Source of the DNA: the human T2T-CHM13v2.0 reference genome, Homo sapiens
NCBI RefSeq assembly: GCF_009914755.1
Contig: NC_060929.1
Reading direction: 5' to 3' (one strand)
Length of the DNA: 64,000 bases
In this document: positions 7,391-44,994 of the stretch, one piece after another
How positions within the stretch are numbered: the first letter of the stretch is position 1
Layout: the number at the start of each line of letters is the position of its first letter
Notes under the pieces: model-generated
Seen by the model: only the letters and a program-made list of their open reading frames with translations
Databases searched by the model: none
What the model was told of the DNA's origin: nothing
Made by a program: the position numbers and the translations under genes

Positions 7391-8839
7391 GTTTTCTAGG
7401 TCATGGACTAAATTTGGAAAATGACAAGATTTAAGTAGCTACTGCTTTAAGATTTAGTACCATACTTTCTACTATCCCAAAATAGTTTGTTCTTAACCTT
7501 TACCTTCTACCTCTGAATATGTTATAAACAGTCCACTTACATTTTCAAAATTAACAGCTATCATGAGTACATTAAAAGGGCACCATTGTGAAGTTTGTTT
7601 TATGTTTCTTTCCATTAAAATGTATTATTTTCAACTTCTTGCTGTTTTACTTCTTTTCCCTGGTGTGGAACACAATTACCACCATATTCTTATGAGTGCT
7701 TTAAAGCCCTCTTTCTAGCTAAAAGCCACACTATATTGTTAACTCCACGAGGTCCAATAACATTTTCCCAAACATGCTGTGACTGTCACCACTGGAGAGA
7801 AAGGCTTTTAGGGAAAAATGTGGAGTTCTTATGCAGCACATTCCTTTCTTTCTTTTATGCTTTCCTAATTTCAGGTAATTATTGAGTTGAAGTTTATTAG
7901 CTAATTGTATACATGCTGTGGTATTCAAGTACTTTCATTTATGTGGTTGACAGTAACTAGAGTTTTCTTTCATATAGGTATTTTCTTCAGATTTGGGAGG
8001 TGAAACTCTAATTTTGGTACTTGGAAGCCTAGTGTGACTCTAACTAGAAGTTAATCAGTTGCATTTATTAGAGAATTGTTCCATGCAACTTGGGGAATTA
8101 AAATAATTTTTCTATACTAGGATATCATCCAGTGAGTGCTACACTGAGATGCCCACAAACCATGGACATTGTTTTGCCTGTAACACTGGGGACAAAGTCA
8201 GGAACAAAAACTTGAACCACTTGAATCAAATAAATGGGTTCTGGTTCAATATAGTGGTGACGTTTGAACATTTCTAGTTCTGCTCCTCTCAATCGTTTCA
8301 GAAAACATATAACTCGTTTCAGTTAAAATTAATTTCTTGGGCACATACTTGAAAAACCCTTAGCTTAGTTTGAATTGACTTATTGATCACTAAAAAAGAG
8401 ATTTTATAAATTGAATTTAATTTCCCTGGTACCTTCAGCAAAGCTTCGTGGCATCCCTTATTTTGAGTTCAAAGTGCCATTTGGTGTAAAGCCCTGTATG
8501 AATAGATCTCTTTGGTAGGGATGAAAGTTTACCAGACAAGATTAAAACTTGTTCATTAATTCTCAAAATTGTCCTTGGACTAAATAATTGCCAGTGCTTT
8601 TCCTAGGATTTCATTTAAAGTTTGGTCATGTGACAAAGTGTACTTCCAAGACCATGTCCTGGGAGCTGAGAGAAACCACTCAAAAGGAGCCCAGGGGTTC
8701 TGACCAAGATCAGGTGAGAGAACACAGTGATTTCAGACATATGAGACAACCTATGGTTCTTCTTCTTCTTCTTCTTTTTCTGCTTTATACTGGATATATA
8801 ATATATTGCATGAAATGATTTATTTATTTTCAATTAAAA

Positions 8840-9126
8840 CTTTTTTTTTTTGAGTTGAGGTCTTGCTCTGTTGCCCAGGCTGGAGTGCAGTGGTATGATC
8901 ATCACTCATTACAGCCTTGAACTCAAGAGATCCTCCCACCTTAGCCTCCTGAGGAGCTGGGATTACAGGTGCATGCCACTGAGCCTGGCTAATTTTGTAC
9001 ATTTTTTGTAGAGATGGGGTCTCACTTTGTTGCCCAGGCTGGTCTTGAACTCCTGGCCTCAAGCAATTATCTCACCTTGGCTTCCAGAAGCACTGATATT
9101 ACAGGCATGAACCATTGCCCATGCCT
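8840..9126 (-). mobile_element. AluJ
   Basis: Poly-T followed by divergent antisense dimeric Alu. Confidence 0.92.
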
Positions 9127-9129
9127 GCA

Positions 9130-9990
9130 TATATTTGAAACTTATAATTTGATCAGAAGCCCACCTCTTATTCCCAAAAGATTCCTCATGCCTGTCTGTC
9201 ATTCTCCCTCCCAATTCTCTACCTGCCCCATTCCCAGGAAACCAACAATTTGCTTTCTGCCATGATAGATAAAATTTTCTCGAAGTTTATATTGATGGGG
9301 CTCAGGGCATGCCACCCCCAAATATGGCATGTTGGCATTTGAAAAAATAGCAAAAGCAAGAAAGTCACTCTCAACTTCCCCTCGCCCTTCCTCCCCTGAA
9401 GTAGGCCATAAAACCCAGATGATCTTTTCCTAAAGTAGGTCATGAAACTCTCATTCTAGAGATGCCAGTCCTATATTTCATATCCAGAGGAAAGATACAT
9501 CCTTATCCTTGAAAACACAGAGATATCAAAAAGAATCTGAACAAACAGGCCCAAGATCCCCCTAGTTGATCACCATTAGGTCATACCCCTTTGCCCAATC
9601 ATACTTCTGCACAATTGTCCACTGTTCCTCAAACCTAAGCCTAAACAATACACACATTTCCCTATTTCTTTGAATCTTCATTTCTCAAGGCTCCCATGCC
9701 ACATTATTAAATATATTTGTATGATTTTTCTCTTGCTAACCTGCATTTTTGCTATAGGAGCCTCAGCCATGAACTTCGTGATGCATGAGGAAAAGATGTT
9801 ACCTTTTCTCCCTGACGATAAAAATGGAATCATACAGTATATATTCCTTTTTGTTTGGCTTTTGTCACTCAGAATAATTAGCTTTAATTTCACTCATGTT
9901 ATTGAGTGCATTAAGAGTGCTTTTATTGCTGAATCACATTCAACTTTATGGATATACCATGATTTGTTTATTCATTTACCTATTGATGGA
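9130..9990 (-). mobile_element. Old L1 (L1MC/ME) 3' region, split by an LTR
   Basis: aaatggaatcatacagtat...tggcttttgtcactcag, ggatataccatgatttgtttattcattt motifs. Confidence 0.7.
9293..9817 (+). mobile_element. ERV1 MER4-group solo LTR (MER31-like)
   Basis: tgatggggctcagggcatgccaccccaaatatggca start, aagaatctgaacaaacagg, attaaa signal; inserted in L1. Confidence 0.65.
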
Positions 9991-10250
9991 AGCCAGAAAG
10001 AAAATGAGCACCTTAGCCCTACAACCACAAGGAAATAAATTCCATTAACAACCTGAATGAGCTTGAAATAGAAATCTTGAGCCTTAGATAAGTTTGCACA
10101 TATCAACCTCTTTTTTTCAGTCTGGTGAGACTCTAAGCAGAGAACTCAGTTAACCTCAGTTAACCAGAGTCCCAATTCATGGGAACTGTGAGATAATAAA
10201 TTTGTCTTGTTGTAATGCTCTATGTCTTTTGTGATTTGTTATGCAGCAGA
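9991..10250 (+). mobile_element. MLT1E/F-like LTR 3' part
   Basis: caaccacaaggaa...aacaacctgaatgagcttg...aactgtgagataataaattt...tttgttatgcagca. Confidence 0.75.
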
Positions 10251-10259
10251 AGTCAAGAA

Positions 10260-11510
10260 ATGCTGCCACGAGGAAGGAACACATGAAGGTGTAGACTTCT
10301 CCAAGGTGACACTAGGACAGAGGCAATAGCCTGCTCAGACACCCAGTGGTAGAAGGGAACACAGAGTGTTCAAGGGAACCAAAAGTATGCTCTGGCTGGA
10401 TTGCAGCTACTCAAAAGGAGAAGGAACTGGGATGAGGCTAGAGATGTAGTCAGACCCTATAAATTTTTTTTTTTTTTTTGAGCATTGAGACCTCAGGAAC
10501 AGGTTTTAATGGGTGTTTGCTGGTGGAGGAGAGGGTGGAGTGACTTAACATGATGAGACTTACTGTGTTGGAAAGATTATTCTCACTGCAATGTGGAGGA
10601 TGGGCTTGGAGAGGGCAACAGTGAATGTGGAAACCAGTAAGAAATGCAGTGTTGTAGTCTCAGGGAAAGAAGTTGGCAGTATGAATTTGGGCAGTAACAG
10701 TGGAAGCTAGAAGTGAACAAATTTGAGAAATATTTAGGAAGAACCTTGGAGACAACCAGCCACATGGAGGTATTGGGTAGAGAGTTGCATGTACTGATTC
10801 AAAATACTCTTTTCAAAATACTCTTCTTTTGGCTTCCTTACCACTTTCTTACCTTGTATACCTTTGGTTACTGAATTGAATTTAATTTCCCTGGCACCTT
10901 CAGCAAAGCTTCGTGGCATCCCTTATTTTGAGTTCACGGTGCCATTTGGTGTAAAGCCCTGTATGAATAGATCTCTTTGGTAGGGATGAAAGTACTGATT
11001 CAAAGCTAAAAAGGTAAGCCCACACTGGAGAAAGACTCATTGGCCTGTAGAGGGTAACCAAAGCTGCAGGCGGGTATGAAATAATCTAAGATACTGAATG
11101 TTTCAACACTTAGTTTCTGCAAAATAATCTTGTAAAGGAGACTTTCAGTAACCAAAGATACACAAGGTAAGAAAGTGTTAAGGAAGCCAAAAGAAGAGTA
11201 TTTTGAAAAGAGGATTTTGAAAATGAGGAAATGATCCACAGTAAAAATAAATGCTGAAAAGTCAAATAATATGAGATTTGAAGATGTCAGTTGTATTCTG
11301 AAGCTCTTAGAAAGAACTGCTTTGGTGTGATAATGAGGGTGATGAGAAAAACAGGAACACTGTAATTTGGCCAGCATGTGGGAAAGTTTGTGGAAAAGAG
11401 GATGGAGAGGCTCTAGCTTAGAGAGAAGAGAGGTCAATGAGACTTTTTGTTTGTTTTTTGCTTGTTTGTTTAAAAATAGAAAATACGTAAATAAAGAGAT
11501 CTAGTTAAAG
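10260..11510 (-). mobile_element. L2 fragment, hosting a templated insertion
   Basis: Purine-rich antisense L2 motifs (gaaagattattct...ggaaaccagtaagaa...tgagaaatatttagga). Confidence 0.65.
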
Positions 11511-12754
11511 AGTGAACCATTAAGTAACTCATTATTGCTGTGTTTTTATTGCTTAGTGTGACTATTTATCCCATGGAAAATGAAAAAGTTTTTATTTAAC
11601 AGCATAGTCTTCAAAGGCATTCAAGCTATTCTTCTTCTACCTTATTTTTTAATACCCTGCCTTAAACTTAAATCACAAATGATTCCCAGGAAGGTATTTT
11701 TGCAATAAATAAGTAAATACAGAAACTCATTTGGAGCTCACAGTATTTGTTTTTATAGTTGTTCCATGGCATGAGTTAATCAGTTAACAAGGCAGTAACT
11801 TTTAATAGGAACCCCTTTCTTCTGAATACTGTCTAAGCATTTGTGATAATTGTTCAGGCTCTAAAAGAAAAAATTGCTGCTCCCCAGGAGTTCAAAATTG
11901 AATGGATGAAGTGATGAATAAAAGCACTGAAAGGTTTGTGGAATACTAATGCGAAGAAAAACTGGAGGATAATTTATCTTTCCTGTAGTATCATTAAATC
12001 TCACTTTAAAAACGAAATCCTTGTCCTAAGAAGTTTATACAATTTTTTTTCATGACATATACGAGAACTAAAGCCAAGAAATTCTATTATTACCACCCTT
12101 AAAATTGGGCTGTATCCATGCCACACACACAAAAATGTTTTTAAGAAAGCATGATAGTCATTTGTTCATTGATTAGTAAACTTTATGTATGAAGTCAGTC
12201 TAGCGACGAACTTTTTTGTTCCAGTAGGATAACTGCAATCTTCACCCTCTCAAGTTTCTATTTTTCCTCCTGAAATTACTATTATCATTCAGGCAGCAGC
12301 CAGGACTTTTCTGTATATCCTACCCTCAGGGTCTGCTTGATATTGTAAAACTGCTGAGTCATCACTTACATTGTGTTTCAAAATAAACTTGACAAGTACA
12401 GCAGAATAAAATACAGCTTTGAAATAAATAAACCTGGATATTTTGATACCAAGTCCAAAGTTTACATCATAGGAGACTAATAATAGATGAAGAGAACTGA
12501 AGGTCCCCAGTCAGCTCTGTTAGGCTGCCTAACTCATACCATATCAAGTACCATCTTTCCCAATTCTAGAAGCCAAGTGAGAGTCAAATTGGCTCCTAAG
12601 GTCACTCAGTGACTATTCATGAATGTGTTTTCTGAGCATTCGCTGTGCTGGGCAAATCTTCCTGTGGGTACCCTGAAAAGTTTTTTCATGGTTAGCATCT
12701 AGCTCATAGTCTATTGATCGTCTAGCAGGGGAGACAGACAAGTGTACAACTCAG

Positions 12755-19134: not shown

Positions 19135-19962
<828 letters not shown>

Positions 19963-20703: not shown

Positions 20704-20981
20704 GTAAGAAAATATAAAATGTGACAAAATCAGAATAAATGAACATAAATAACAAAAAGTAAGACAAACATGATTTTAATAGCTTTATTAAGTAGAAAAT
20801 CTGGAAATAATTGAGCCCTAAAACATAAAAGAGAGATAAAATGTATTGTGACTTTTGCTTACTTAGTCAGATGTTTGTGTTTTGAAGAAAATGAAAAAAA
20901 AAATTATAAGAGAAAATATTCTGCTTAAAAAAATTAGTGGAAAAATCAGAGGATTTTTGGCTATGTACCAGTCCTATATAG

Positions 20982-40876: not shown

Positions 40877-41914
40877 GTATTTGGCTTTTGTTTTTTAAAC
40901 ATATGAACACGGCAGATGCCGCTTTGACTTGCCTCAGCAATAGCCTTTACTCGGTGTTAAGTCTAGCCTCCTTATATACTTAGCAATTTAAATGTGTTGA
41001 ATAAGATTTTTAAAATAAAAGGATACTTAGTACTCAAGAATATTAATACATGTGTTTCCTAAAGGTTACGGGGAAAAAAGATAATGTCCCAGTTGTATGT
41101 TCTGAACTAGTACAAGTCTAAAGAAAAGCTAAATGCAGTTTATCTTCTTGTTAAGAACTCAATGCTTGGCACACATTAGGATAAATCGTGTTATTTCAGG
41201 TCAGTATCTCCCCGGAAATCGTTTTTCCAACCCTACCTGCAAACACACAACTTTCTCTATTCCCGAATACCGCACATTTCATAAATGGAGAATTATCTTA
41301 CTCTAATTTAAATCAAACTGGTAAGCATACAAAGTTAGTATTTCTCCTGTTTTTGTCTAATAATTCCCTCCTGGTGTGAGTTTTAATATGTGGGAAGTAG
41401 AGAGGAAGGGGGTTAGATTTTGGAGTCAGTTAAAGGAGAGAAGGAAGTCAACAAAACAAAATTTTGCTTTCTTTAGTTTTTTCCTAAGCACATGATTTTT
41501 GGTATTGTTTTAAGAAGACAAAGGACTGATACCATAAAAGTCCATTTGAATGTTTTAATTCTAAACATACAATTTCTAGATCTACCAAATGCTAATCAAT
41601 GTTGGGAATAAATTCATAAAATAAGGGAGTAAACTCCTAGAATGAGAATATTTTTTTTTTTTTAGTGCAGAGAAGGGATTTTTAAGGTAGAACGTGAATA
41701 TGTTTTCAGCACCATTTTTTTTAAACGTGGGAAATTAAATTATCTGGAATTTGGTCACAGAGGAGCAGCTTGTATGCAAACTAAGTCAAGACTATTTCTC
41801 AATAATTTTCTAAGTGTTATTTATAAGTGGAACACACAAAAGAGAAAACGGTCCTTGTCTTCTCAGATCAACTCCTCAGATATACCACATTTTCCACTGG
41901 CAAGAAGTCATTCT

Positions 41915-43312: not shown

Positions 43313-43696
43313 CTGGGCTGCTTCTTCCTGTAAACAACAATTCACACAATGTTCAAATTGTAATCCAATTCCAATCTGGAATTGGTCACAGAGGAGCAGC
43401 TTGTATGCAAACTAAGTGAAGATGAAGGTTAGACCAGTTCTTGCTCATAAGAAATGCAGGAAGACTCAGGGATCAGGGTCCTGGAATCTCACTGTTGAGG
43501 GAGGCTGAATGAAGATGATTTTAAACATCTTTATTCTTTACTTAATCTGGGAAATCAATGGAAAATATCAAATTCTGGTCACTGTACTAAGTTACAGTTC
43601 TTCAGAAATGAGAGATAGTTTCCCACTGATACATTTGTCTAAGGCTTGGAAAACCTTAATAACATTTTGGACATTGTCAGAGATTGCTTTCTATTG
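43313..43696 (+). pseudogene. Exon-like remnant with RGS EN-L-FW motif
   Basis: tctccAG acceptor, ttg|GTaaat donor; NLELVTEEQLVCKLSEDEG, LNEDDFKHLYSLLNLG, GLENL(+1)ITFWTLSE. Confidence 0.45.
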
Positions 43697-44994
43697 GTAA
43701 ATAGCAGCAAGGGTCTATTCTTGGCTTGGTAACTGATTGGAGGCCTGATTTGCAATGTGGCTCCCACCATGCTCTATGCTATAATTTCTCTGCCTATAAA
43801 ATGTGTTACTTACACTCATCTCCATTGCAGAGTTCTGTGGATGCAGTTATATCAGTGATGGTCATAGATAAATAGTTATAACAATTCAAAGTCTATCTTA
43901 AAACATAAGCATCTATAATTCTCTTTTCCAGGTTGACACTCTTAAGAGTGTCAGGTGGCTGGATTATAATTGTTTTCTCTATGGCTTCTTCATGGAGTAT
44001 ACCTCCAGAATTTCTGGATCTTCAGTTCAATTAGATGCCCTTGCAAATAAAATGATTATTCTGTCTTTCTGCTGAGCATGAATGTCACAACCCGCACCTG
44101 CTCTGTGAATAGCAAGTCAACAATGGGAGCTGCCTTTCACTCTTCCCTTGGTGCCATTGCTGGTTGTCCTCAAAGAGCTTTGGCTTAGAGGATTTGCATG
44201 GGTTTACCTCTCTTTCTCTTGGCTACTCCCTGTGATTCCTCTCATCAGTGGTATCTTAAATCTGTACTCTCAGCAGTTTTTTCTCCTACAACTTCCAAAG
44301 GAAACTCTGGACAACTGTCTGTGGCAGTGGCAGCTCTGCTTTTCATAGCTTCTCAAACTAGTAGTTTACTCTCAGAGTCAGCTTCCCTCAACTGTGAGAT
44401 TCCATGACCCCGATCCCTGGGTCTTCCTGCATTTCTTATGAGTGAGAACCGGTCAAACCTATTGAGTTTTCTGCTCTTGGTCCTCCCTAGTAGTTACTTA
44501 CACTGCCAGCCTGTGCAGGGTATCTGGCATCCCTTTCTCCCTACATGGCAGTTCTTGGCTAAATCCCTAACCAGTTAGGTAACTCAGAATCACTCTCAGT
44601 TATATCTGGAAGTAATAACAAAAAGGTCCTTCTAGAGCTCTTGAAATGGTTTAATGGCTACATTCTCTTAAAAATAGCCCTTCCAAGTTACTCATTGAAA
44701 ATCCTCCTAGGGGTGGGGAGAAAAAAACATCTTCAATACTTCCTACATAGTCACTCTGTTGATTTTCCTATTACACTTACCTGTGTCCTAACATTAGTTT
44801 ATTCAGGGCAAGTTTTCTTAGTCATCAATATTCTTTCAAAAGGCAGAGTTTGGACAACTTCCAGGCAGTGTCCCAATTCAGTATAGAGAGGTCTTAAAAA
44901 CTGTCCCAGCAAGAGAATCTGCTTCACAGGCCATTTGATAATAATACACGATGTGGCTTAGGAATAGTTCTGGATATTCTGCAGTGCAATACAA

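What the first reader, a model, noticed from the sequence alone, without database searches (positions are those of the whole stretch)
10791..11004. Two-donor templated insertion flanked by a 13 bp duplication
gtactgattcaaa occurs at 10791-10803 and 10992-11004. Between them lie (a) 10798-10875, an inverted copy of 11144-11221 (4 mismatches in 78), and (b) 10874-10993, a direct copy of 8409-8528 (3 mismatches in 120). Junction microhomologies are ttcaaa, aa and gt, and there is no poly(A). This matches serial template switching (MMBIR/FoSTeS or Pol theta-type repair) fixed in the germline; the low divergence suggests a simian-age event.
Basis: partly seen in the sequence, partly recalled or inferred. 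Interest (0 to 1): 0.7.

Follow-up and report, generated by a model that had tools for sequence, protein, structure and literature searches.

The report
Nested template-switch DNA repair scar
A 201-base gain in human non-coding DNA is built from copies of two nearby sequences and was likely pasted in by one DNA-repair accident in an ape- or monkey-era ancestor; a similar two-piece copy lies 32 kb away, so this kind of scar looks ordinary and is likely without function.

Summary
Neither donor has another close full-length copy in the genome search. Template switching is supported; the Pol theta label fails on tract length.

1. The last 7 nt of the insert fit both donors. They sit inside an 18/23 inverted similarity (8522-8544 / 11125-11147) joining the two donor ends (p about 0.02-0.03 after 30 comparisons). 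Piece B is therefore probably an excursion nested inside the inverted piece, with a hidden fourth switch.
2. 11205-11516, which starts inside donor A, was carried to chr11 by a two-step L1 3' transduction whose two source L1s are absent. That copy has the donor allele at 11213, so the insertion is probably older.
3. A second two-donor composite lies at 43374-43518.

Divergence of 3.6% (1.5-7.2) points to an ape or catarrhine age. No gene or RNA family overlaps. Verdict: a new member of a known class, of low to moderate interest.

The parts
10791..10803 (+). Target 13-mer, first copy; its last 6 nt are the overlap with the inverted piece
10798..10875 (-). Piece A': inverted copy of 11144-11221 (74/78); its 14-bp tandem units are identical
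10874..10993 (+). Piece B': direct copy of 8409-8528 (117/120); bracketed by TGAA at 10872-10875 and 10987-10990
10987..10993 (.). 7 nt that fit both donor B's end (8522-8528) and the reverse complement of 11141-11147; likely trace of a hidden switch
10992..11004 (+). Target 13-mer, second copy
8409..8528 (+). Donor B; no other match in the genome search
8522..8544 (+). Left arm of the 18/23 inverted similarity, straddling donor B's end
11125..11147 (-). Right arm of the 18/23 inverted similarity, straddling donor A's start
11141..11221 (+). Donor A (11144-11221, extendable to 11141); native, in the orientation of the old repeat relic around it
11194..11221 (+). 14-bp tandem duplication inside donor A; units differ at 11213
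11205..11516 (+). Stretch copied to chr11 behind an L1 3' end. It starts at a TTTC/AA-type site (11204|11205) and ends about 21 nt after AATAAA (11490). No L1 stands here now.
10540..11480 (.). Old, highly decayed dispersed-repeat relic hosting the target and donor A (the name L2 is recalled, not from a call)

Best explanation
This is a 201-bp gain made of an inverted copy of 11141-11221 interrupted by a direct copy of 8409-8528 and flanked by a 13-bp duplication, likely produced in one germline event by a low-processivity repair polymerase that switched templates repeatedly (MMBIR-like), and likely without function. Shown: the pieces, the overlaps and the nested reading (A', TGAA, B', TGAA, AGT). 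Inferred path: a + strand 3' end at 11147, with kilobases of single-stranded tail behind it, snapped back onto 8522-8544 through the 18/23 inverted similarity. It copied about 115 nt of B and re-entered the proper template 4 nt behind its exit (2-bp overlap), then copied on to 11221. It then paired through 6 bp with 10798-10803. The chimeric piece, cut off at the edge of the mismatched part of the 23-mer (11141), was sealed in inverted orientation by a last 2-bp switch to 10791, re-copying 13 bp. The polymerase, and whether the lesion was a broken fork or a resected break, cannot be read from the sequence. Inferred age: ape to catarrhine ancestor, before an L1 landed at 11204|11205.
For: Structure and overlaps. 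The similarity linking the two donor ends has the top score (13) among 30 end-pair/orientation combinations. Random position pairs reach 13 in 15 of 20,000, 21 of 20,000 and 23 of 40,000, about 0.02-0.03 after x30; many null hits are A/T runs. That 23-mer has its best non-self match in 264 kb exactly at donor B's end (18/23; next best 17/23 twice). Duplex energy is -12.6 kcal/mol. Exit (11147) and re-entry (11144) lie 4 nt apart, as expected for a transient excursion. Donor A is native: the right flank with A in place aligns to an unrelated relic at score 340, against 277 with A flipped and a null maximum of 248 in 500. Snapback onto newly made ssDNA with several switches and a return is the published MMBIR model (PMC4888836 passages), and BIR leaves a long single-stranded nascent strand (PMC9262586 passages).
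Against: The 23-mer was picked after seeing it, and the corrected p is only about 0.02-0.03. A second end-pair that no junction uses (A-right against B-left, direct) scores 11, so AT-rich ends give such matches by chance. The model needs a cut and a fourth switch that leave only 7 nt of trace. No outgroup was available, and in-genome tests of empty against filled site were inconclusive: post-junction P = 0.295; against a long relic the filled site scored higher, 614 against 531; relic profiles never spanned the junction. B's status as donor rests on the architecture alone. A single event versus several events cannot be shown.
Confidence: 0.5

Rival explanations
1. Three linear switches. Most simply, the right end of a resected break with a 13-nt overlap primed on donor B (2 bp), snapped back onto its own strand at 11144 (2 bp), then joined the left end (6 bp). 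The 23-bp similarity is chance.
For: Fewest steps, and all three visible junctions are explained. Both templates are the strands that resection leaves single-stranded, forward strand left and reverse strand right (PMC7615360 passages). Short first and longer last microhomology matches PMC7165422.
Against: Leaves the 7-nt double fit and the in-register 9-nt match unexplained (p about 0.02-0.03). The strand fit is weak evidence: by my count 3 of 4 random two-piece arrangements would pass. Donor B is 2.3 kb away, slightly beyond the 1-2 kb resection quoted.
Confidence: 0.3
2. Nested path from one break end: the right end snapped back onto 11141-11142 and made 5 nt, which created the 7-bp match to B. 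It copied B, returned to A and joined the left end.
For: Explains the 7-nt double fit and the 4-nt inner repeat with no cutting step. Short primary synthesis creating a longer microhomology is described for Pol theta.
Against: Does not explain the further 9-nt in-register match. Later tracts of 78 and about 115 nt are far above typical Pol theta tracts.
Confidence: 0.08
3. Two or more separate mutations: B was first inserted at 11144-11147 on some haplotype, and that haplotype later served as donor for an inverted copy; or B was inserted into an existing A'.
For: Each layer has its own short flanking repeat (13 bp outer, 4 bp inner). Divergences of 4/78 and 3/120 do not exclude different ages.
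Against: Needs a lost intermediate allele, or a second hit inside an 81-bp target whose end happens to match B over 7 nt.
Confidence: 0.06
4. The event is tied to the L1 that once stood at 11204|11205: its endonuclease made the break, or the same rearrangement removed the L1 and left the 14-bp tandem as a target-site remnant.
For: The lost source site lies inside donor A, on the border of the tandem units and 16 nt from A's end. Two rare events overlap and their divergences do not differ (7/196 against 15/300, Fisher p = 0.51).
Against: The second source site of the same chr11 element is also empty, with no visible scar, so loss of unfixed sources suffices. The chr11 start fits a nick in the allele that already had two units. 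The chr11 copy has donor-state G at 11213 while the insert has T, which most simply puts the insertion first.
Confidence: 0.04
5. Independent dispersed-repeat copies, a retroposed (TPRT) insertion, or an assembly artefact.
For: A 13-bp flanking repeat is in the size range of L1 target-site duplications (under 20 bp), and donor A lies in an old repeat relic.
Against: No poly(A) and no TTTT/A-type site at either end of the 13-mer. The donors are local and near-unique, and relic relatives are far below 95% identity. Seven differences argue against an artefact.
Confidence: 0.02

Closest known systems
FoSTeS/MMBIR serial template switching (PMC4888836, passages; PMC11293582, passages)
   Same: Several short local templates in both orientations, junction overlaps of 2-6 bp, and a return to the original template; snapback onto new ssDNA is part of the model.
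   Different: Only 201 bp, old and apparently neutral. One switch probably used a 23-bp imperfect similarity that is almost erased from the product. The pathway cannot be proven from sequence.
Local n-jumps and cycles of templated insertions (Li et al., PMC7025897, passages)
   Same: A copy-and-paste string that returns to the host and re-replicates a host segment, with local templates and mixed orientations.
   Different: Defined in cancer genomes with copy-number data and mostly larger segments; this one is constitutional and sub-kilobase.
Short-range template switches in great apes (Walker et al., PMC7954356, passages and first part of section 8)
   Same: Germline inverted local copies fixed in hominids; 4,017 events; piece A (78 nt) is within their range (median 12, maximum 128).
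   Different: Their model allows one reverse-complement segment. Here there are two donors, one direct and 2.4 kb away, so their method would not describe it.
Pol theta locally templated insertions, TINS (PMC7165422, passages; germline TMEJ in PMC7615360, section 9 and passages)
   Same: Direct-repeat piece from the other end and inverse-repeat piece from the own strand; short first and longer final microhomology.
   Different: Primary tracts are rarely over 10 bp and distal templates are under 0.1% of repair; here the tracts are 78 and about 115 nt and one donor is 2.3 kb away.
Templated sequence insertion polymorphisms (Onozawa and Aplan, PMC5110952, abstract and first quarter of text)
   Same: Insert size near their experimental median of 191 bp; microhomology at junctions.
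   Different: TSIP donors are distant. Class 1 needs poly(A) and a TTTT/A site, both absent here.
L1 3' transduction with 5' inversion (PMC10760644, passages), for the chr11 copy only
   Same: L1 3' end, tail, downstream flank of the source, A run, 17-bp duplication at an endonuclease-type site.
   Different: Two successive flanks from two chr5 sites 15 Mb apart, neither of which holds an L1 in this genome.

Membership tests
FoSTeS/MMBIR-type rearrangement | Several templated segments joined in one allele, mixed orientation | tested here: met
FoSTeS/MMBIR-type rearrangement | Microhomology of a few bp at junctions | tested here: met
   6, 2 and 2 bp; 2-5 bp quoted in PMC4888836
FoSTeS/MMBIR-type rearrangement | Resumption on the original template | tested here: met
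   13-bp re-copied target
FoSTeS/MMBIR-type rearrangement | Single event at a stalled or collapsed fork, with the pathway's enzymes | not testable with these tools
   no outgroup genomes, no genetics
Pol theta TINS | Insert repeats flanking DNA directly or inversely | tested here: met
Pol theta TINS | Synthesis tracts short (rarely over 10 bp) and templates next to the break | tested here: not met
   78 and about 115 nt; donors 140 bp and 2.3 kb away
Pol theta TINS | POLQ dependence | not testable with these tools
   needs genetics
TSIP class 1 / TPRT insertion | Target-site duplication | tested here: met
   13 bp
TSIP class 1 / TPRT insertion | Poly(A) tail and TTTT/A insertion site | tested here: not met
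TSIP class 2 | Donor from a distant region | tested here: not met
   both donors within 2.4 kb
Local n-jump / cycle of templated insertions | String returns to the host and re-replicates a host segment; local templates | tested here: met
   against definitions
Four-point short-range template switch | One reverse-complement segment from within a fork's reach | tested here: not met
   two donors, one direct
L1 3' transduction (chr11 copy) | L1 3' end upstream of the carried DNA | tested here: met
   L003:1239-1319 matches the ORF2p C-terminus, E 1.6e-7; high-copy, and its halves are adjacent but inverted in other copies. Pfam gave no hit.
L1 3' transduction (chr11 copy) | A tails, short duplication, endonuclease-type site, poly(A) signal near the end of each carried piece | tested here: met
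   17/17 duplication; sites and AATAAA positions
L1 3' transduction (chr11 copy) | Source L1 directly upstream of the donor flank | tested here: inconclusive
   no L1 3' end at either chr5 site; the source is inferred to be lost
L2 element (host relic) | Match to a curated L2 model | not testable with these tools
   no repeat library is held; dispersed relatives shown; the name is recalled

The most novel reading that the evidence does not exclude
The scar and the vanished L1 are one story. An active L1 sat at 11204|11205 and founded a two-step transduction lineage. Its endonuclease nicks triggered the multi-switch repair, or that repair removed it, leaving the 14-bp tandem as its footprint and the nested insert 400 bp upstream. 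This would be a germline case of a source retrotransposon excised by template-switch repair, detectable only through its offspring on chr11.
Probability: 0.05. Interest if true: 0.7.

Novelty: new member of a known kind. Interest (0 to 1): 0.27.

Why it matters
As a locus it probably matters little: no annotated gene, no Rfam match, and the longest stop-free frame across the insert is 97 codons. As an example it is useful in two ways. First, it suggests that reading only the visible junction microhomologies can miss a switch guided by a longer imperfect similarity between donor ends. That is testable genome-wide and bears on whether small germline templated insertions come from end-joining or from BIR-like synthesis. 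Second, the chr11 transduction is an in-genome time capsule of the donor and records two L1 source sites that are now empty, so the order of events can be inferred from one genome. A scan of 264 kb found four local near-unique copy events, two of them with two donors, which suggests a large, little-catalogued class.

Tried and rejected
1. Showing that the empty site is ancestral by colinearity with old repeat relics was inconclusive. One relic gave local scores of 177.5 (empty) against 156 (filled), but post-junction P = 0.295. A longer relic scored the filled site higher. Iterative profiles were overrun by Alu and after masking hit only the left flank. No relic elsewhere in the window aligned.
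2. No segmental-duplication paralogue lacking the insert was found (these searches score only the best candidates).
3. No further daughters of the transduction lineage were found.
4. TPRT origin of the insert was rejected.
5. No RNA family (7500-12500) and no long reading frame.
6. A direct similarity between B's left end and A's right end (score 11) is used by no junction and is treated as chance.
7. The 14-bp tandem as a retained L1 target-site duplication is disfavoured (see rivals).
8. The L1 subfamily was not determined by any search; its resemblance to L1PA4/5 is recalled.
9. Literature: a search on LINC02106/PARP8 (15 of 396 listed, titles and abstract starts only) showed nothing on this locus. 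Searches gave class-level papers only, and searches gave none. Supplementary tables of Walker et al. and Mao et al., which might list this site, were not examined.

Full report
Observation. The net gain is 201 bp, and there is no A run over 4. In searches of the whole genome, donor B matched only itself and the insert, and 11005-11200 matched only itself and the insert. These searches score only the best candidates, so they give lower bounds.

Which copy is the donor. The right flank, including A, belongs to an old dispersed repeat. It aligns to an unrelated relic about 200 kb away (E 0.0056). The pairwise score is 340 with A in place, 277 with A flipped, and at most 248 for 500 random window pieces. 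The left flank hits the same kind of relic. So 11144-11221 is native and 10798-10875 is the inverted copy. The family name L2 is my recall. Direct tests of empty against filled site were inconclusive, and the filled version scored higher. B as donor follows only from the architecture.

A hidden link between the donors. The repeat scan listed an imperfect inverted pair, 8522-8544 and 11125-11147 (18 of 23: 7 exact, 5 of 7 mismatched, 9 exact). It lies across the far end of donor B and the near end of donor A. The last 7 nt of the insert therefore fit both donors, and the insert can be read as an inverted copy of 11141-11221 interrupted by B, with TGAA on both sides.

Chance test of that link. 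Among the 30 combinations of six ends and two orientations it scores highest (13; next 11). Random pairs reach 13 in 43 of 29,853 and 24 of 28,091 under a loose rule, and in 15 or 21 of 20,000 and 23 of 40,000 under tighter rules, about 0.02-0.03 after multiplying by 30. The 23-mer has no better non-self match in the window or in 200 kb of neighbouring DNA, but it was chosen after the fact. I take this as moderate evidence.

Mechanism. On the minus strand the insert reads: 7 nt of 11141-11147, the reverse complement of B, 11144-11221, then the left flank. The distal 9-nt match can only have helped if the priming strand carried 11125-11147, that is, if it was the native plus strand ending at 11147. 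I therefore favour this path (all steps inferred, confidence 0.5): a plus-strand end snapped back 2.6 kb onto its own single-stranded tail, copied B, and re-entered 4 nt behind its exit. It ran to 11221, paired with 10798-10803, and was then fixed in inverted orientation with a final 2-bp switch that re-copied 13 bp. This follows the MMBIR model as reviewed in PMC4888836 (passages), with the long nascent ssDNA of BIR (PMC9262586, passages). The linear three-switch path stays a serious rival (0.3). It uses the strands left by resection (PMC7615360, passages), but by my count three of four random arrangements would pass that check. Canonical Pol theta insertions are too short and too close to the break (PMC7165422, passages). 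Confidence in the broad class, locally templated repair synthesis, is about 0.95.

An L1 time capsule. Window 11205-11516 has a copy on chr11 (285 of 312 columns, 15 mismatches, 3 gaps). There it follows a 5'-inverted L1 3' end (ORF2p C-terminus, E 1.6e-7). It is followed by an A run, about 90 nt from chr5:67.03 Mb (93 of 95) and another A run, and the whole is flanked by a 17-of-17 duplication at a TTT/AAAA site. Both carried pieces start at endonuclease-type sites and end about 20 nt after an AATAAA. Neither chr5 site holds an L1 3' end now. This reads as a two-step 3' transduction (definition in PMC10760644, passages) through two sources that were likely never fixed.

Order of events. The chr11 copy begins at the border of donor A's tandem units and has G at 11213, like the donor, while the insert has T, which makes its two units identical. 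The simplest order is: tandem duplication, templated insertion, T-to-G change in the donor, L1 landing, transduction. A slip or a back-mutation in the insert would void this order.

Age. Insert against donors gives 7 of 196 = 3.6% (95% interval 1.5-7.2); chr11 against window 15 of 300 = 5.0% (2.8-8.1); the second piece 2 of 95. Human divergence from eight primates spans 1.3-9.83% (bioRxiv 2023.03.07.531415, section 6). The event therefore likely falls after the New World monkey split and before the human-chimpanzee split. Errors at birth (1.2% inferred for short germline insertions, PMC7615360 section 9) would make it younger, and two adjacent differences (10937-10938) may be one event. L1PA6-PA3 span 26.8-7.6 million years (PMC4083085, passages); the subfamily here is only a recalled resemblance.

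How ordinary. A scan of 264 kb for local, near-unique copies of at least 40 nt and 90% identity gave five pairs, and one search added one at 89%. They resolve into four events: this one; a second two-donor composite at 43374-43518 (direct from 41742-41791, inverted from 44378-44460); an inverted 47-nt pair; and a direct 82-nt pair. Direction was not established for the other three. Walker et al. report 4,017 single-switch events in great apes (PMC7954356), and Li et al. define local n-jumps and cycles (PMC7025897, passages). TSIPs use distant donors (PMC5110952, first quarter read). PMC11293582 (passages) shows inverted repeats starting such switches at large scale. I found no paper on this locus in the listings; supplements that might list it were not seen.

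Function. No annotated gene (hub note), no Rfam match in 7500-12500, and the longest stop-free frame is 97 codons. The 78-bp arms could pair (-77 kcal/mol as a duplex) if single-stranded or transcribed; nothing here shows that they are.

Verdict. The feature is real and is a new member of a known kind. Interest 0.27.

Noticed in passing
window 43365-43518: Second two-donor composite: 43374-43422 is a direct copy of 41742-41791 (96%) and 43426-43508 an inverted copy of 44378-44460 (89%). A 9-mer repeats at 43417-43425 and 43510-43518, and a 9-bp hairpin stem with a 3-nt loop sits at the left junction (43365-43385). No other genomic match. Same direct-from-left, inverted-from-right arrangement as the main finding.
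   Followed up: partly
L003 1177-1917 (G000:C11:38149528-38150268) and window 11205-11516: 5'-inverted L1 with two successive 3' transductions and a 17-bp duplication; the first carried piece comes from this window.
   Followed up: yes
L009 1501-1595 (G000:C5:67025874-67025968): Source of the second transduced piece; an empty site with no L1 and no visible duplication.
   Followed up: partly
window 19844-19890 and 20764-20810: Near-unique 47-nt inverted local pair, 96% identical, about 0.9 kb apart; likely a single-donor templated copy.
   Followed up: partly
L013 761-841 and 1629-1710: Near-unique 82-nt direct local pair, 96% identical, 0.87 kb apart.
   Followed up: partly
window 8391-8414 and 11204-11227: AT-rich direct similarity (score 11) between donor B's left end and donor A's right end, used by no junction.
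   Followed up: partly
window 11246 and 11490: The transduced transcript ran past a first AATAAA at 11246 and ended after the second at 11490.
   Followed up: no
window 11352-11361 against L003 about 1645-1654: Cluster of five differences within about 10 nt between the window and the chr11 copy; possibly one complex change.
   Followed up: no
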